A stretch of 64,000 bases of DNA from Porphyridium purpureum (Eukaryota), in contig VRMN01000004.1 in assembly GCA_008690995.1 (NCBI GenBank), forward strand, positions 1,426,001 to 1,490,000, written 5' to 3'. This document shows positions 25,388 to 55,865 of this stretch, piece after piece. A program made the translations under genes and the position numbers. Under the pieces are notes generated by a model, which worked only from the letters and a program-made list of their open reading frames with translations, did no database searches and had not been told where the DNA came from. Numbering within the stretch: the first letter of the stretch is position 1; every line of letters begins with the position of its first letter.

Positions 25388-26146
25388 CTACTTAATGTAG
25401 CTTTCCAAAGCAATGATGAGACGACCGAACGCTGGCTTCACCCATAGATCCCACTCTGTTTCATCGAAGCCACGCTCCTTGGCCATTTCGGCACTGACGT
25501 CGCGAAGGGAGCAAACGCCAAAGACCATGGCATCCAGAGGAACTTCGAATTCCTCGTAAAGCTTTTCCATAATGGAAAGACCCACTGGATCTAGAAAGTC
25601 ATCTTCGAGGCCCAGCGCCACGCTGTACGTCACAACACGCACAAACTCGACAAAGTCGCGCCAGCATGCCTTTGCACGAAACGCCGGGAAGAGGCCGCCT
25701 CCGGGCTGGTCGATGCCAGGGAAGGTTTCGAGCATGCGCTCGCGCGCAGCTTGGACAATCGCATCCACGCGTTCTTCCAAGAATGCAGCCATTTCCGCAT
25801 TGCCAGGCGGGTTCTTATTCCGTACCTGTGCCAGCTCGGACAGTGAAAGGAAGCGCTTTTCCTTCTCCGCCTGCTCGGCAAACGCCCCGCACGCTTCCGT
25901 GTTGTAGATTGGCTGCGCAATCTGCTGTTTGATCAATTCCATGATCCGCGGACTCAAGGCAGACGCCGTCCCTGCTGTCACTGCGTCGGCTCGCGCAGCC
26001 GATCCGTCTGGCGACGTCGCGCCTCCTGTGGCCGAGGAAGACGCGCCCTGCGCCTGCGCACACATGCACAGGCTACGGGATGACTGTGTGCGAAGTGCAG
26101 GCCGTGCTGCATGCCCCGAAGGTGCCGTGAACACGAAATGAAGCAT
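25388..26146 (-). CDS. Nucleus-encoded, plastid-targeted allophycocyanin-like (AplA-type) phycobiliprotein
   Basis: AEKEKRFLS..EL, FPGIDQPGGGLFP, AKACWRDFVEFVRVVTYS (bilin Cys motif), GLSIMEKLYEEFEVPLDAM; Ala/Ser-rich N-terminal extension. Confidence 0.8.
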   Translation of the reverse strand: MLHFVFTAPSGHAARPALRTQSSRSLCMCAQAQGASSSATGGATSPDGSAARADAVTAGTASALSPRIMELIKQQIAQPIYNTEACGAFAEQAEKEKRFLSLSELAQVRNKNPPGNAEMAAFLEERVDAIVQAARERMLETFPGIDQPGGGLFPAFRAKACWRDFVEFVRVVTYSVALGLEDDFLDPVGLSIMEKLYEEFEVPLDAMVFGVCSLRDVSAEMAKERGFDETEWDLWVKPAFGRLIIALESYIK

Positions 26147-34576: not shown

Positions 34577-36139
34577 CTAGGCATCCACGGGCTCTTCCGG
34601 TGCATTCGCGCTCACGATCTCAACTTCAAAAATCAACAGTGCATTTGGCGGGAGCATTTCCCCAAACATGTCCGTCATTCCTTCACACGCTGACGGATGC
34701 ACATAGAGGATCTTCTCCTCTCCCTCCCGCATCCCTACAATACCCGTTTTCAACGCAGCCGGCGCGGAATCAAGTGGAAGCGTCAGAACCTGCACCATGT
34801 TGCTGTCATTCTCTGCAGCGGGGCACGTGAAAAACACGCGCTTATCTAAAAGACGTCCCTGAAGGATCAGCAACACCGTTGCCGTTTCAAGCACCACGGG
34901 CGCGTTTTCATCCAGTTCGTCACTGGGGAAGGATTCGGCGAGCACCTTGCCGGGTTCGAGCACGGTCAAACTGCTCGACTTGGTCTTGAAGAACTCATCG
35001 GCGTCCGCAAGGTCTTGCTCGGCAACCAGTTCTGCAGCGATTTGATGCAGCCCCACCATCTGCTTCTCATATTCAGGATAAGACATGGGGAAGTCCTCGC
35101 CAGCCGCTGCACTTTTCAATCCCTTGACCACAAGGCCCACATCCAAGCCCAGACCCGAGCTCAGCAAGGACTGGCCGAGTGCGTGGCCATATGCCTCTGC
35201 AATCTTGCCCATGTCCGTGCCGGCGGGCGCCACGTCCGCGGCCGTCTTTCGCTTCGTTCCCAGACCTGAGGCTGCGCGCGTGCTTGCTCCTCCTGCTCTT
35301 CTCGCGCCTGCCGATGATACATTCGCACCGCTCTGTTCAAACATGGCCTTTGCCGCCTCCATCGACTCGTGCCACTTGCTCGGGTCGTTTACCACCTTGG
35401 CAAATTCCGGATCTGACTGCAGCCACTGGCTCAGCATGGGATTCTGGCGAATTGCTTCGCGCGACGCCTCCTGCTTTTCCGGATCATTTAGGTATTCTTG
35501 CATCGCTTCGCTGTTCCACAACCCGCTCATCATGTTCGGGAGCTGTGCCATGATGTCGGCAGCGCCGCCAGCGCCGCCAGCGCCTCCATCGGCCTGGTTT
35601 CCGCCGCCCAAGCCGCCGAGCATCTGCATCATCGCGTTCAAATCCATACCTCCCCCAGCCGCTGCTGGATTCGCGCCGGCAGCGCCAGCGGCTCCTGCGC
35701 CACCCATCATCTGCTGCATGAGCGCATTCAAGTCGGGCGCACCCTGCTCGGCACCGCCGCCAAGACCCATCGCATTCAGCTGGGCCATCATATCCGCGAC
35801 GTCTGAGTCGGCGGTCGCGGTGGCCCCTGCGGTCGCGGTGACCGCGCCTCCTGCCGCGGTCGTTGCCGCAGCGGGTGCGGCATCCTTCGCCGCGGCGGTC
35901 GCATTCGCGCCCATTCTGCGCATCACATTAATCGTGGAGCCGTCGGCGACGCCATACTTCTCGAGCGTCTGCGCAGGCTCAAGCTTCTGGCCCTTGAACA
36001 AGAGCATCTGCCGCTCCGCTCCAATCCCGCTCAGCGACGCAATCTGGCCCATGAAGTTCTCCACGGTGTCGCCACCGGACACTCGCAGCTCGTAGCTCTT
36101 CCCATTGAAACACTTCACCTTGACGAAAAAGGGCGCCAT
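34577..36139 (-). CDS. Ubiquitin-like + STI1-like + Mip/FkpA-type FKBP fusion protein
   Basis: UBL domain (VKCFNGKSYEL...QMLLFKGQKL...TLEKYGVADGSTI), Met/Gln-rich ubiquilin-like middle, FKBP_N (KIAEAYGHALG) and FKBP_C (GMREGE..LYVHP...LPPNALLIFEVEIV). Confidence 0.85.
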   Translation of the reverse strand: MAPFFVKVKCFNGKSYELRVSGGDTVENFMGQIASLSGIGAERQMLLFKGQKLEPAQTLEKYGVADGSTINVMRRMGANATAAAKDAAPAAATTAAGGAVTATAGATATADSDVADMMAQLNAMGLGGGAEQGAPDLNALMQQMMGGAGAAGAAGANPAAAGGGMDLNAMMQMLGGLGGGNQADGGAGGAGGAADIMAQLPNMMSGLWNSEAMQEYLNDPEKQEASREAIRQNPMLSQWLQSDPEFAKVVNDPSKWHESMEAAKAMFEQSGANVSSAGARRAGGASTRAASGLGTKRKTAADVAPAGTDMGKIAEAYGHALGQSLLSSGLGLDVGLVVKGLKSAAAGEDFPMSYPEYEKQMVGLHQIAAELVAEQDLADADEFFKTKSSSLTVLEPGKVLAESFPSDELDENAPVVLETATVLLILQGRLLDKRVFFTCPAAENDSNMVQVLTLPLDSAPAALKTGIVGMREGEEKILYVHPSACEGMTDMFGEMLPPNALLIFEVEIVSANAPEEPVDA

Positions 36140-36377
36140 CCTGCACCTACCAGCCGACGCACGCACTCGCTCTCCACGCCCCTCGTCTCTCTCCCACCCA
36201 ACGCCACCACACCTTGCTCTCTCGTCTCTTCCCCCGTCTATCTCTTGCCCCCTTCTTCCCCGTCTTAACCCATCCTTCCAGATCTCGCCCGTCCTACTAA
36301 ATTCACTCCCGTTCCTAGACTCCGACCCACAACCAGCCTGCGCACGGCCGCGCACATCGTCGCACCTTTCGCCCACA

Positions 36378-36411
36378 TTAACTATAGAAATAGATATATA
36401 TATTTTAAATT
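36378..36411 (+). promoter_or_regulatory. AT-rich TATA element, putative upstream Pol III promoter of the permuted tRNA
   Basis: TTAACTATAGAAATAGATATATATATTTTAAATT, exceptional in this GC-rich window; TATATATA at 36395-36402 lies about 25-30 nt before the pre-tRNA leader. Confidence 0.7.
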
Positions 36412-36441
36412 CTCGTTCCATTGTCCCAATCCAGCGAAATG

Positions 36442-36548
36442 CCGCAGTGGGAAACCGCGCGAGTTCGAATCTCGTCACAATCATGCTTGGGACTTCCTCG
36501 AAGACCTTTCGATTGTGTGGCCGAGTGGTCTAAGGCGCTGTGTTAAGG
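36442..36548 (+). tRNA. trnL-AAG: Circularly permuted tRNA-Leu(AAG): 3' half 36442-36483, 27-nt spacer, 5' half 36511-36548, junction at 37/38
   Basis: 5' half GATTGTGTGGCCGAGTGGTCTAAGGCGCTGTGTTAAGG; 3' half CCGCAGTGGGAAACCGCGCGAGTTCGAATCTCGTCACAATCA. Acceptor stem GATTGTG/CACAATC (7/7) plus discriminator A; anticodon stem CTGTG/CGCAG; T arm GCGAG-TTCGAAT-CTCGT; class II variable arm. Confidence 0.93.
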
Positions 36549-36558
36549 AGCTGGATTC

Positions 36559-36564
36559 TTTTTT
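36559..36564 (+). terminator. Pol III terminator (T6)
   Basis: TTTTTT immediately after the trailer helix of the permuted tRNA. Confidence 0.8.
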
Positions 36565-37353
36565 GCCGAGGGCACACTCCCGTTGTCTTTTTTCGTTCTT
36601 GGGCTGAGTTCTGTGTTGAGGAGTCTTCCTCTGCGTTGGTCTTCGTCTCTGGCTGCTACCGCATCACTCTGACCTTCATAGCACTCACCTTTTTCAATTT
36701 CACCGCTCTCGTGCTCTCCGCAAGGTGGGCGACGAACGCTGCCGATCCTCTGCTGCCGTTTCACCAACATGTCCGGGATGCTGTGCGGTCGGCCACGTCG
36801 CACTATGGCTCCAGGGTATGAAAAGTGACGTCGGGCACCGTCATACGGTGAGAGTGCAGTAGCCTTCTGAGCGCTGAGAGCTTCAGCAAGCCCAGCTGCC
36901 GAGCCCGCCTTTAATTTTCATCTTTGAGCTGTGAAGGGAAGCACCTTTCTGGTCTTTTGCTCGTCTCGTCTTCCACTGCGCACCGCAACAGTTTTTTTTT
37001 CCTGCGCACAGGCCACCTCATTTCGCAAGACAACGCGAGCAAACTAGACCACGGAATCAGAACCTGTGCCAGTTACTGCGCCGGCTAGACCACATCCTTC
37101 GTTTACTCTCAGATACTGTGGACATTGGACCATTTTTTTCTTCGACGACGAACGGAAGCGGAGGTTGCGAACGGAAGCTGACAACGGTGGCGGAAAGCTG
37201 CCGGACACGAGATAAGCACGCCGCAGAGGCTAGGAAACGGACGGACAACGGACTCTGCGAAGCACGGCGCCTGTTGTGAGCGTTCAAAGAGGCGCCGGTT
37301 CCGCGCTGTGAGGAGTTCTCGCGCGTGCAGGCCACTGGCAAGGTTTGGGCCAC

Positions 37354-37638
37354 ATGAGCGACGGCGGAGAGCGCCGCCCGCCAAGCAAAGGCGCCGGCGA
37401 GAGCAGTGGCAGTGTGCCGCCGGGTAAGGCTGCGTTTTTTGAGGAGCAGAATGGTGATTCAGAAAACGCACATGAAGGCCGCGACCTGCATGATAACGTG
37501 GGCGGCGCGGTGCAACGAAACGGCGGCAGGACGATGAGTTTATTTGGGGAGGGACAAGACGTGCAGGTGCTCGTGGGCCTGGCGGTACTCGCTATGATAT
37601 TGGAGTACATCTACTCGCGCTTTCGGTGCGGTTGTTGA
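37354..37638 (+). CDS. Small hypothetical tail-anchored membrane protein
   Basis: 94 aa: hydrophilic N-terminus, one C-terminal hydrophobic helix (VLVGLAVLAMILEYIY), short basic/Cys tail RFRCGC. Confidence 0.45.
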   Translation: MSDGGERRPPSKGAGESSGSVPPGKAAFFEEQNGDSENAHEGRDLHDNVGGAVQRNGGRTMSLFGEGQDVQVLVGLAVLAMILEYIYSRFRCGC

Positions 37639-37813
37639 GGCATGTTAGCCTGCAAGTTTGGCACTTGCGTCGCGTTGCTTCGCGTTGTGGTTTGTCGCCG
37701 CTTGCTGAGGTCCAGTGTGCCCTCATGTCGAGTGTCAGTCATAATGTGGGTCACAAGACCTCTACAAAATGCTAGTTATACTGTTTGGAGAAGGTCTTTC
37801 TTGCTACTCCGTG

Positions 37814-39742
37814 CTATAATTCAATAATGTCATTCAGATTCACTTTGGCTCGCTTTGTCCGTGGCGGCCCCTCAGTCTCTTGCCCATCTGCATCCAAAGC
37901 ATGCTTTCTCGACTCCACGGTAGGTCCGCTCCACATTTCAAGACCAGCGTCGTCCTCCGATTTGCGCGCCGAGCTGCCCATATCCAACGTATTCGCCTCG
38001 ACGTGGGCGACGTTTTCCTTCATGCCTCCATCCAAAAGAAAGCCATCCGGAAATGCCCTGGCCTCCTTTTGGCTCACATCAGTAATGCACACCAGGCAGG
38101 AGCGGTTCAAAACCAAATCACTCACTTCCAAGATGCACCCGTTCGAAAAACCAAGTTCAACAAGTCCTTTTTTCAGGTTCGCATCGTACATCTCTTTTTC
38201 AACGTCATCCGCGCCATCGTCCGAGTCAAACAACAAGTCGTTCTTCAGAACCAAGGCGACCGTTTTAGCACAAAGCGCATTCTGTACGACGCGAGTCAGA
38301 AATTCACCGAGTGTGTAATCTGCCAACGGAATCTTCAGAGCCGCATAACCTCGCGAGCAGGTCACGCAAGTAAGATTCGGGGGCTTCGACACCTCATTAT
38401 TGATCAAAAATTGCCTGCCCACCGCCCCCGTCAAGTGACTCGTGACAAATGCCGCTCGGTGACTTTGGCCATACGCAATAGGGTCGCTCAGGATACGCAA
38501 GACTTGCAAGACGACCAAACCGGCCACAATGGCGTTCGTCGTGGCAACGGCATGAACTATATTTCCAGCAATGCCCTTTGCCTTGAATGGACTCACCAGC
38601 TCGACTCCGTACGCGGCCGCGCGCAAGTTGGCTGCCGCTGCAACAAACGCCATCGCCACGGCGTCATCCTTGTCAAAGGATAGTGTTCCGATTTTGTCCG
38701 CGCGATATCTCTTAATAAAGGCAATCACGTCAAGGAACACTCGCGCAGAGTACGCCGTAGACCAGCAATCCTGAACGCTCAAGTCTACACGTCTCGACAC
38801 GCTCTCCCTGGGTGCACTGGCATTGCTCCCACCAAACGAGACCTCTTCTTCTTTAGCAGCTAAACCTTTCACATCAAGTGCGGTTGGAGGTGCTCGCCTG
38901 GTCCATAGATCTTCCATAGAGATCTGAGTTTCAATATCTCTTTGAAACACAGACGCCGCAACGTGTAATGCATACGCCTGGGGTGATTCGTGGCGTGCGT
39001 GATTTCCTTCGTCGGAGCAGGATTCGTGGATCCCTTGGATGTCTGTCAAGACGTTTGATTCGTCCCGTGGTCCAAACAGTAAGCTGTACAGGTATTTGGC
39101 CCATACGATACAGTGCTCTGGTTTGTCTGGTGTCGACCGGATCGTGCACACGGCAAATGTTTTCGGTGGGACCTTTGGTTTGCAATCATAGCACTCTGTC
39201 TTGCCCGGAATGACGACATCGACCTGTCCCTTGTACCCAGTAGAGCCCGACTCCACAAGCGGCACGCCTGCAGCGACGCACATCCTATTCACGTGGCGTC
39301 TGGCGTCCGCATTGTCCAGCGCATTGCATACTACGGTGAATGAGCGATAGAATGACACGTCAAAGCGCGGATCAGTGACATTGGACACGACGCCTTTCAC
39401 TTGGCACGTGCCTGGGCGCATGCTTTGCACCTGCTCCGCAGCCACAATGGACTTGGGCTGTCCGACATGTCGCCGTCGAAAAAGAAACTGTCGGTTGAGA
39501 TTCGACACATCAATCCCGTCCATGTCGACCACCTCCACGCACGTAAAGCCTGTCTGCACCAGATCTTTGAGCAGCTCACACCCGACTCCGCCAGCCCCGA
39601 CCACAAGCAGGCGCGCTGCTTGAACGCGGGGCACCATCTCGGCTCCATAAATGACTGCGAGCGATTTATAACTCTCGGCCAGGGCGCGGGCGCTCGCGCG
39701 ATGCGCACTTGCGAGCGCATCGCGTGCCTGATCTTCTGCCAT
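37814..39742 (-). CDS. UBA2: SUMO-activating enzyme subunit 2
   Basis: VGAGGVGCELLK, SNLNRQFLF, ALDN..ARRHVN, TECYDC, catalytic CTIRSTP, AGNIVHAVATTNA. Confidence 0.95.
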   Translation of the reverse strand: MAEDQARDALASAHRASARALAESYKSLAVIYGAEMVPRVQAARLLVVGAGGVGCELLKDLVQTGFTCVEVVDMDGIDVSNLNRQFLFRRRHVGQPKSIVAAEQVQSMRPGTCQVKGVVSNVTDPRFDVSFYRSFTVVCNALDNADARRHVNRMCVAAGVPLVESGSTGYKGQVDVVIPGKTECYDCKPKVPPKTFAVCTIRSTPDKPEHCIVWAKYLYSLLFGPRDESNVLTDIQGIHESCSDEGNHARHESPQAYALHVAASVFQRDIETQISMEDLWTRRAPPTALDVKGLAAKEEEVSFGGSNASAPRESVSRRVDLSVQDCWSTAYSARVFLDVIAFIKRYRADKIGTLSFDKDDAVAMAFVAAAANLRAAAYGVELVSPFKAKGIAGNIVHAVATTNAIVAGLVVLQVLRILSDPIAYGQSHRAAFVTSHLTGAVGRQFLINNEVSKPPNLTCVTCSRGYAALKIPLADYTLGEFLTRVVQNALCAKTVALVLKNDLLFDSDDGADDVEKEMYDANLKKGLVELGFSNGCILEVSDLVLNRSCLVCITDVSQKEARAFPDGFLLDGGMKENVAHVEANTLDMGSSARKSEDDAGLEMWSGPTVESRKHALDADGQETEGPPRTKRAKVNLNDIIEL

Positions 39743-55259: not shown

Positions 55260-55865
55260 ATGGTGCTCAGAGTTCCCGTGTATCGGATATCTGAACCCCA
55301 CCATAGGAGGACATGTCCATTGCCAACATCCCCACGGACAGCCGCCTACGCGTGGTTGAGCCTCCCAATGTGTTTCACAGAGCTGTGCTCGATTGTGGAA
55401 GATGTTGGCAAAAGCGAAAATGAAGGTATTGCGTTCTTGGAGCTTGAATGTGACGCTGTTCCAGGTATTCGAGACTTGCTACTTCAAGAGTTACGAGAAA
55501 GAATACCCAGCGTAGAGAACGCGTTGTCGAGCCGCACTCTAGAAATTTTGCTGGAGCTTAACGATATCGCGAAGACAATCCAGGACCTTGCGATCCAGGT
55601 TGACTTTTGGGAGTATGCATTCCAGTTTTTGGTGGAAGTCAAACACAGAAGCCTCCGCAACGCGCTTGAGCGTATGCCAGATGTGATACTATTTTGCGGG
55701 TCAAGGAGTGAATTTGCTCAGGAACTCATTAATTCAAATCATACGGTCCCGTATATTTTGCAGAGCTACATTGACTGGGACAGAATGGGTTATGACATGG
55801 AAGCAAATGGTGAAATTTTCCTCGTGGCGCCCGAGCTGTATATTGTTAACCCCCATGACTTGTAA
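55260..55865 (+). CDS. Antirestriction protein ArdA-like
   Basis: WLSLP near the N-terminus; C-terminal FCGSRSEFAQELI...VPYILQSYIDWDRMGYDMEANGEI matches the ArdA signature (EFAEELI...IPE.L..YIDYE..ARD...G); net acidic. Confidence 0.7.
   Translation: MVLRVPVYRISEPHHRRTCPLPTSPRTAAYAWLSLPMCFTELCSIVEDVGKSENEGIAFLELECDAVPGIRDLLLQELRERIPSVENALSSRTLEILLELNDIAKTIQDLAIQVDFWEYAFQFLVEVKHRSLRNALERMPDVILFCGSRSEFAQELINSNHTVPYILQSYIDWDRMGYDMEANGEIFLVAPELYIVNPHDL

What the first reader, a model, noticed from the sequence alone, without database searches (positions are those of the whole stretch)
36378..36564. Circularly permuted tRNA-Leu(AAG) gene with a complete expression cassette
Seen in sequence: the tRNA 3' half (36442-36483, C38 to discriminator A) precedes the 5' half (36511-36548, G1 to G37), separated by 27 nt. 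Swapping them gives an 80-nt class II Leu cloverleaf: 7-bp acceptor GATTGTG/CACAATC, anticodon loop TT-AAG-GC, GAAA-capped variable arm and a canonical T loop. The B box therefore lies upstream of the A box, and a TATA tract (36395-36402) and T6 terminator (36559-36564) bracket the unit. Established knowledge: permuted tRNA genes, which mature through a circular intermediate, are known from Cyanidioschyzon merolae, some prasinophytes, a chlorarachniophyte nucleomorph and one archaeon, and standard tRNA scanners miss them. Inference: this is a functional and probably unannotated permuted gene, in what looks like a non-Cyanidiales red alga.
Basis: partly seen in the sequence, partly recalled or inferred. 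Interest (0 to 1): 0.93.

Follow-up and report, generated by a model that had tools for sequence, protein, structure and literature searches.

The report
Swapped-halves leucine tRNA in red microalga
A red microalga, likely of the Porphyridium group, writes a leucine tRNA gene back half first, and one public RNA data set holds the halves rejoined in what is likely a ring-shaped intermediate, so the gene likely supplies a tRNA that standard scans miss and would extend this rare gene layout beyond the hot-spring red algae.

Summary
Confirmed. The 3' half (36442-36483) precedes the 5' half (36511-36548) across 27 nt. Swapped, they give an 80-nt tRNA-Leu(AAG), ARAGORN score 119.8, against a best of 111.1 in 300 simulated windows. 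One of 8 public runs laid (random-primed RNA) gives a 137-nt contig: a 107-nt ring with the spacer and the G37-C38 junction, flanks absent. A DNA-type run shows genomic order and no junction. RPS18 groups the host with Porphyridiales (96/86); P. purpureum is likely. Its published tRNAscan-SE list has no CUN-reading leucine tRNA. The public protein model overlaps the 3' half. This is a new member of the known type II permuted tRNA genes. New are the lineage (a red alga outside Cyanidiophyceae; no report in 8 paper searches) and the anticodon. The scan noted other permuted tRNAs on other DNA (C. merolae, Ostreococcus, a diatom, a giant virus). CCA-tailed, charged tRNA was not seen.

The parts
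36380..36411 (+). A+T-rich upstream tract with TATATATA at 36395-36402; likely TFIIIB/TBP site
   Evidence: Sequence; the only TATATATA in the window, 29 of 32 A+T. Role inferred from C. merolae (PMC3978253).
36428..36441 (+). Leader. 36428-36435 is the 5' strand of the terminal 8-bp helix; 36436-36439 faces tRNA positions 35-32; 36440-36441 with C38 form the 3'-site bulge. A CAA triplet lies at 36427-36429, near the predicted start of transcription.
   Evidence: Pair probabilities 0.94-1.0 for 7 of 8 helix pairs, 0.58 for the outermost; helix in all 4 MFE folds. Start site inferred only.
36442..36483 (+). tRNA-Leu 3' half (C38 to discriminator A73): anticodon stem 3' strand, long variable arm, T arm (B box), acceptor 3' strand; no encoded CCA
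   Evidence: held in the RNA ring contig
36484..36510 (+). 27-nt intervening sequence closing the acceptor stem; kept in the ring, predicted to be removed by tRNase Z and RNase P
   Evidence: Sequence; present in the ring contig of run X20
36511..36548 (+). tRNA-Leu 5' half (G1 to G37): acceptor 5' strand, D arm (A box), anticodon AAG at 36545-36547
   Evidence: one unbroken DNA contig in run X4 at the depth of the flanks
36549..36557 (+). Trailer. A36549 completes the 5'-site bulge (G36, G37, A); 36550-36557 pairs with the leader.
36559..36564 (+). T6, likely RNA polymerase III terminator (a second T6 at 36588-36593)
   Evidence: Sequence; role from established knowledge

Best explanation
This is a tRNA-Leu(AAG) gene with its halves in swapped order (type II, junction 37/38), likely working, in a red alga that is likely a Porphyridiales species; its RNA is found rejoined at G37-C38 in what is likely a 107-nt ring. 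Proposed path: (1) RNA polymerase III is recruited by the upstream TATA tract, because the reversed B and A boxes suit TFIIIC poorly. It starts near 36428 and stops at the T6 (inferred). (2) The roughly 135-nt precursor folds into a cloverleaf closed by the spacer at the acceptor end. Its two ends pair over 8 bp and put a relaxed bulge-helix-bulge on the anticodon loop (folding predicted, register read from sequence). (3) The tRNA splicing endonuclease cuts after G37 and before C38, and the ligase joins them (enzymes inferred; the junction itself is seen in RNA). (4) RNase P and tRNase Z open the ring at the acceptor stem and CCA is added (inferred from C. merolae). (5) A34 becomes inosine and the tRNA reads CUU and CUC (inferred).
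For: Cloverleaf score 119.8, the median of intact Leu genes, above all 300 simulated windows. Both bulges are 3 nt and both predicted cuts fall at 37/38; U32 pairs with the third-last leader base, as in the anticodon-intron pair (motif terms from PMC3978253; the third-last position is recalled). Run X20 (RNA-Seq, random primed) has one 137-nt contig, depth 15.7, no other letters, going 36452-36547 then back to 36441-36481. Rebuilt from those coordinates, it is a rotation of 36442-36548 with the first 30 letters repeated at the end, the form a 107-nt ring takes with 31-letter words; shifts by one further base do not fit. X20 covers neither flank, so genomic DNA is an unlikely source. A34 reads as A, not G, which fits an unmodified intermediate (inference). 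Run X4 (DNA by guess) bridges leader/3' half and 3' half/spacer/5' half/terminator in genomic order, with no joint, and the 5' half at flank depth. RPS18: 83% to Erythrolobus, 80% to Porphyridium aerugineum, 71-78% to Cyanidiophyceae; clade 96/86. Window GC 0.560, P. purpureum 0.559. The P. purpureum tRNAscan-SE list (30 rows) has Leu CAA and TAA only, while CTT+CTC are 421 of 13,006 codons in 17 window ORFs.
Against: The junction appeared in 1 of 8 runs laid; X18, from the same study, lacks it. The one raw-read run, X24 (about 20% read), put 0 of 59 reads on the tRNA halves, spacer or leader. The evidence is an assembled contig: no strand, no single molecules. A mix of linear precursor and mature tRNA could in principle close the same loop in the graph. 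The central helix has 2 of 4 standard pairs, at probability 0.12-0.14 in the ensemble. No CCA-tailed or charged tRNA was seen. The whole genome was not held, so a diverged intact AAG copy was not searched for directly. The species rests on one 154-column tree and GC content. No orthologue in another Porphyridiales species was found, so there is no covariation evidence.
Confidence: 0.9

Rival explanations
1. The gene is real, but the ring is not the route. The contig closes because the assembler merged linear precursor (spacer) with mature tRNA (junction), and the acceptor end may be cut before the anticodon end is joined.
For: Only a contig was available, with one mean depth and no strand. Short leader and trailer tips could be pruned in assembly.
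Against: The contig has no other letters, and A34 reads as A where mature inosine would be expected to read as G (inference). No leader, trailer or CCA piece was listed. A ring is the shown route in C. merolae and green algae (PMC3978253). Random priming with size selection would favour rolling copies of a ring (inference).
Confidence: 0.05
2. The halves are inner remains of a decayed tandem pair of intron-bearing genes; the ring is a dead-end by-product and an intact gene elsewhere supplies the tRNA.
For: Loss of the outer exons of a tandem pair is the favoured origin of permuted genes (PMC3978253). A second genomic copy of 34 nt of the 3' half exists (depth 600 against about 245).
Against: No decay: top-range cloverleaf score, intact TATA, helix and terminator. 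The second copy has other letters on both sides (T at position 38, no AAG loop before it) and the 5' half has no identical second copy in X4. The P. purpureum list has no Leu(AAG). The RNA is cut and joined exactly at 37/38.
Confidence: 0.03
3. The order is an assembly artefact, or the stretch is protein-coding: the public 635-aa model starts at 36484 on the minus strand and covers the 3' half and the TATA tract.
For: That exact 635-aa protein is in NCBI, UniRef, nr and EukProt; the 521-aa form from 36142 is not in the collection.
Against: A separate run rebuilds the same order. RNA cover of the minus-strand gene stops at 36188-36250 in X18, X24, X5, X6 and X7, short of the tRNA; X19 and X20 do not cover that gene here. 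The ubiquitin domain starts at residue 7 of the short form.
Confidence: 0.01
4. The halves join at another register and give tRNA-Ile(AAT).
For: Three junctions give Ile(aat) at the same ARAGORN score.
Against: The RNA junction is 36547>36441, the same letters as 36548>36442. The long variable arm marks a class II body. P. purpureum has a listed Ile(AAT) gene.
Confidence: 0.01

Closest known systems
Type II (37/38) circularly permuted tRNA genes of Cyanidioschyzon merolae, e.g. tRNA-Leu(CAG) (Soma et al. 2007; table in PMC3978253)
   Same: 3' half first, junction 37/38, spacer within the 7-74 nt range, upstream TATA, downstream T run, relaxed BHB, ring that keeps the spacer, no encoded CCA, class II tRNA.
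   Different: The host groups with Porphyridiales, not Cyanidiophyceae. AAG is not among the permuted genes in the 2014 table. Leu(AAG) is listed as an ordinary 80-84 bp gene in C. merolae, C. yangmingshanensis and G. sulphuraria (PMC10496412 Table S4). The spacer is 27 nt against 9 nt for C. merolae Leu(CAG).
Type II permuted tRNAs of Ostreococcus, Micromonas and the Bigelowiella nucleomorph (Maruyama et al. 2010, as tabulated in PMC3978253); Auxenochlorella (PMC12633428, passages)
   Same: Junction 37/38, bias to class II tRNAs (Ser, Leu), A+T-rich upstream region, missed by tRNAscan-SE.
   Different: Green lineage. Their permuted Leu is TAA. Their junctions are described as hBH; here the central helix has only 2 of 4 standard pairs and the outer helix is a strong 8 bp. 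The Auxenochlorella gene list (Fig. S1) was not seen.
Intron-bearing tRNA genes of Chondrus crispus (PlantRNA 2.0, 10.1101/2021.12.21.473619; PMC13578239)
   Same: Red alga outside Cyanidiophyceae with BHB-type disrupted tRNA genes that tRNAscan-SE miscalls.
   Different: C. crispus is stated to lack permuted genes; its genes keep 5'-to-3' order.

Membership tests
Circularly permuted tRNA gene, type II (37/38) | 3' half upstream of the 5' half on one strand, joined by an intervening sequence at the acceptor end | tested here: met
   order rebuilt in run X4
Circularly permuted tRNA gene, type II (37/38) | Swapped halves give a canonical eukaryotic cloverleaf, CCA not encoded | tested here: met
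   80 nt, Leu(aag), score 119.8; tRNAscan-SE itself was not available
Circularly permuted tRNA gene, type II (37/38) | Leader and trailer form a strict or relaxed BHB motif at the junction | tested here: met
   Two 3-nt bulges in register, anticodon stem on one side, 8-bp helix on the other; central helix 2 of 4 pairs, so the relaxed 'no H' kind named in PMC3978253
Circularly permuted tRNA gene, type II (37/38) | Upstream TATA-like tract and downstream T run, neither in the spacer | tested here: met
   promoter and terminator activity not tested
Circularly permuted tRNA gene, type II (37/38) | Halves joined in RNA at 37/38 | tested here: met
   Joint in run X20, 1 of 8 runs laid
Circularly permuted tRNA gene, type II (37/38) | Covalently closed intermediate that keeps the intervening sequence | tested here: inconclusive
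   A 107+30 nt ring-shaped contig with spacer and junction fits exactly, but an assembled contig does not show single molecules
Circularly permuted tRNA gene, type II (37/38) | Mature CCA-tailed, aminoacylated tRNA | not testable with these tools
   No small-RNA or tRNA-seq run was offered; X24 had no reads on the gene
Circularly permuted tRNA gene, type II (37/38) | Often the only gene for its anticodon (supporting, not strictly defining) | tested here: inconclusive
   No identical second 5' half in X4; no Leu(AAG) in the P. purpureum list; genome not held and species inferred
Split (trans-spliced) tRNA genes of archaea | Halves transcribed from separate loci, each with its own promoter | tested here: not met
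   One cassette, no promoter- or terminator-like tract in the spacer, spacer kept in RNA

The most novel reading that the evidence does not exclude
Porphyridium hides a second, C. merolae-sized set of permuted and otherwise disrupted tRNA genes, including its whole CUN leucine box. The published scan of P. purpureum lacks any tRNA for Asn, Asp, Cys, His, Thr, Trp and the CUN codons, and a second Leu-type 3' half without an adjoining 5' half lies elsewhere in this genome. Its permuted anticodon differs from those of C. merolae. So the machinery that tolerates permutation would go back to the red algal ancestor, while single genes flip again and again in each lineage.
Probability: 0.45. Interest if true: 0.7.

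Novelty: new member of a known kind. Interest (0 to 1): 0.52.

Why it matters
Among red algae, permuted tRNA genes were reported in the papers I could search only from C. merolae, and a 2026 review states that Chondrus lacks them. A case in the other great branch of red algae, on an anticodon that is unpermuted in three Cyanidiophyceae, bears on the open question of ancient versus repeated origin: it favours an old tolerance and independent flips. It explains part of the gap in the published P. purpureum tRNA set and corrects a protein model that overlaps the gene. It also shows a cheap test: a ring-shaped contig of unit length plus 30 in public random-primed RNA assemblies marks the intermediate without bench work. 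The mechanism itself is known, which caps the interest.

Tried and rejected
No whole genome was held, so no genome-wide scan. Rfam and ARAGORN on the native DNA found no tRNA; the weak mir-2032 match (E 0.21) is chance. The in-window scan found no second permuted gene; it needs an intact T arm followed by the acceptor strand, so it would miss junctions in the T arm and intron-bearing halves. The UBA2 search placed the host only loosely: best named red algal hits 41-43%, no Cyanidiophyceae among the 120 listed. The phycobiliprotein-like gene gave no named red algal hit. Cluster look-ups gave no names for window proteins. The B-box-before-A-box pattern in metagenomes (scan cut at 24 of 64 parts) gave 162 matches in 131 loci: 146 were two intact tandem tRNAs, 14 had one side in an intact tRNA, 2 had neither; one of these is a clear permuted gene, and no orthologue of this gene turned up. 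In viral contigs 0 of 61 matches were permuted, so no sign of a viral source under this pattern. Runs X18, X19, X24, X5, X6 and X7 showed no junction; missing cover in contigs proves nothing. Look-ups of earlier scan notes by place, by sequence and with 'Porphyridium' gave nothing. The 2013 P. purpureum genome paper was not held.

Full report
Observation. The sequence is as described. The 3' half spans 36442-36483, a 27-nt spacer 36484-36510 and the 5' half 36511-36548. ARAGORN sees no tRNA in the native window, and Rfam none at E<=1 in 35000-38000. Swapped in a script, the halves give an 80-nt tRNA-Leu(aag) with a 7-bp acceptor, a long variable arm and a canonical T loop. It scores 119.8. The 162 intact Leu calls in fetched loci run from 102.7 to 126.2, median 119.85, and the six closest of 111 distinct ones all carry AAG (59-61 of 80 letters). 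A permissive scan for a 3' half before a 5' half gave 5 candidates in the window and passed only this one. On simulated windows it passed 3 of 407 candidates in 60 windows, and 8 of 300 windows had any pass, best 111.1. The feature is well beyond chance. The TATA tract is unique in the window; the T6 is common taken alone.

The leader at 36428-36435 pairs over 8 bp with the trailer at 36550-36557. The helix is in all four folds tried, with pair probabilities of 0.94-1.0 for seven pairs. It fixes a bulge-helix-bulge register: anticodon stem; a 3-nt bulge of two leader bases and C38; four positions facing tRNA 32-35; a 3-nt bulge of G36, G37 and one trailer base; then the 8-bp helix. A cut after the second base of each bulge (the usual rule, recalled) falls at 37/38. 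Only U32 and U33 make standard pairs in the central stretch (probability 0.12-0.14), so this is the relaxed 'no H' kind. This matters because sequence alone does not fix the junction: 317 of 440 trial junctions passed and six tied for best, three reading Ile(AAT).

RNA evidence. Twenty public runs hold the 2-kb stretch; I laid 8 of the 24 listed. Run X20, a random-primed RNA library, has one 137-nt contig at depth 15.7 with no other letters. It runs 36452-36547 and goes back to 36441-36481. Because 36441 and 36548 are both G, this is the same as joining 36548 to 36442. Rebuilt from those coordinates, the contig is a rotation of 36442-36548 (107 nt) whose first 30 letters recur at its end, as a ring does when assembled from 31-letter words; shifting one further base either way does not fit. 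It holds the spacer and the G37-C38 junction. X20 has no cover at 36100-36440 or 36548-36752, so it is unlikely to be DNA. A34 reads as A, which fits an unmodified intermediate better than mature inosine-bearing tRNA (inference). Against: the other seven runs show no joint, including X18 of the same study; the one raw-read run (X24, cDNA library, about a fifth read) has 0 of 59 reads on the tRNA halves, spacer or leader; and a contig cannot show strand or single molecules, so a merge of precursor and mature tRNA is not excluded.

DNA control. Run X4 (DNA by guess, depth about 245) covers all 30 bins. One contig bridges leader and 3' half. Another runs from 36447 through spacer, 5' half and terminator to 37100. 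There is no joint, and its three differences lie outside the halves, spacer and helix. The 5' half is unbroken and at flank depth, so it has no identical second copy in that genome. The stretch 36443-36476 does have one (depth 600, and a 2.3-kb contig that enters it from other letters, with T at position 38 and no AAG loop): a second Leu-type 3' half that I could not read further.

Host. The window is gene-dense, with long intron-free ORFs of eukaryotic families. RPS18 is closest to Erythrolobus australicus (83%), an unnamed MMETSP protein (82%) and Porphyridium aerugineum (80%); Galdieria is at 76-78% and Cyanidium at 71%. A tree of 29 chosen rows of the 120 listed (all named red algae, 9 unnamed neighbours, 6 outgroups) puts the window with these three at 96/86 and apart from the five Cyanidiophyceae. 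Window GC is 0.560; P. purpureum is given as 0.559 (PMC10496412), though C. merolae at 0.550 is close, so GC alone does not decide. Porphyridiales is supported; P. purpureum is likely, not shown.

Need for the gene. The tRNAscan-SE list for P. purpureum (PMC10496412 Table S4d, 30 rows) has Leu CAA and TAA only, two undetermined calls, and nothing for Asn, Asp, Cys, His, Thr or Trp. CTT and CTC make 421 of 13,006 codons in 17 window ORFs, and all CUN codons 827. If the species is right, this gene fills a real gap. The same table lists Leu(AAG) as an ordinary 80-84 bp gene in C. merolae, C. yangmingshanensis and G. sulphuraria, and AAG is not in the 2014 table of permuted genes.

Annotation. The public protein set holds a 635-aa model starting at 36484 on the minus strand, across the 3' half and TATA tract. 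RNA cover of that gene ends at 36188-36250 in five runs, and its ubiquitin domain begins at residue 7 counted from 36142. The 114-residue extension is likely an annotation error.

Mechanism. Shown by calls: gene layout, cloverleaf, genomic order, and an RNA junction at 37/38 with the spacer. Predicted by folding: the terminal helix and bulge register. Inferred from C. merolae (PMC3978253): TATA-led polymerase III transcription, cutting by the splicing endonuclease, ligation to a ring, opening by RNase P and tRNase Z, CCA addition. From general knowledge: inosine at 34 and reading of CUU and CUC. The likeliest origin is a tandem pair of 37/38-intron genes that lost its outer exons, leader and trailer being the two ends of the old intron (model; not tested here).

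Prior knowledge. Permuted tRNA genes are known from C. merolae, four prasinophytes, the Bigelowiella nucleomorph and Thermofilum, and from Auxenochlorella. A 2026 review says Chondrus crispus lacks them and does not mention Porphyridium. Eight searches listed no paper that, by title and abstract start, reports one in Porphyridiales. What I saw: PMC3978253, parts 1-6 of 11 and a term search; PMC10496412, passages and part 1 of 4 of Table S4; passages only of PMC13578239, PMC12633428, PMC13437025, PMC6811547 (no 'tRNA' in its main text), PMC3728597, PMC13353863 and the PlantRNA 2.0 preprint; the rest as search listings. Not seen: Soma 2007, Maruyama 2010, the 2013 P. purpureum genome paper and its supplements, the Auxenochlorella figure, the species tables of PlantRNA and PMC13437025, and the tRNA databases. 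Any of these could hold a prior mention. Earlier scan notes report permuted tRNAs in C. merolae, Ostreococcus, a diatom and a giant virus (unchecked).

Verdict. A real and likely working type II permuted tRNA-Leu(AAG) gene: a known kind, in a red algal branch and on an anticodon where I found no report, with public RNA evidence of the junction and likely of the ring. Interest 0.52.

Noticed in passing
window 36443-36476 (run X4): These 34 nt of the 3' half occur at least twice in the genome. The other copy is entered from unrelated letters with T at position 38 and diverges in the acceptor stem: likely another disrupted or permuted leucine tRNA (CAG or TAG), or a decayed copy.
   Followed up: partly
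window 34577-36484 (-): The public 635-aa model overlaps the tRNA gene; RNA points to a start at 36142. The protein joins a ubiquitin-like domain, a ubiquilin-like stretch and an FKBP domain.
   Followed up: partly
L055 (Ga0209090_10041613), reverse strand 282-365: Another permuted tRNA gene, Leu(TAG), junction 37/38, 6-nt spacer, T8 behind it; 78 nt when swapped, unseen by ARAGORN in place. Host unknown; no strong terminal helix was evident.
   Followed up: partly
L016 (Ga0194117_10042245), about 296-360: A T arm with acceptor strand precedes a matching Leu 5' start with D arm (7 of 7 acceptor pairs), but with no anticodon arm, at the head of an A+T-rich tRNA array: a decayed tandem or permuted remnant.
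   Followed up: partly
window 36454-36900: Contigs of runs X5, X6 and X7 begin inside the tRNA gene (36454, 36470, 36518) and run past the terminator; stranded reads in X24 show RNA of both strands behind it, the likely plus-strand RNA starting near the T6. Read-through or an overlapping untranslated region.
   Followed up: no
window 25388-26146 (-): Nuclear phycobiliprotein-like gene (PF00502) with an N-terminal extension of about 85 residues; weakly closest to allophycocyanin alpha chains; only 4 other proteins found, 37-41% identical, none named to a red alga.
   Followed up: partly
window 55260-55865 (+): ORF matching the bacterial antirestriction family ArdA (PF07275, E 4e-8, above cut-off) in a eukaryote; possible horizontal transfer.
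   Followed up: no
PMC10496412 Table S4d: The P. purpureum tRNAscan-SE list lacks tRNAs for six amino acids and all CUN codons, which points to many more hidden disrupted genes and undermines that paper's codon-tRNA matching for this species.
   Followed up: no
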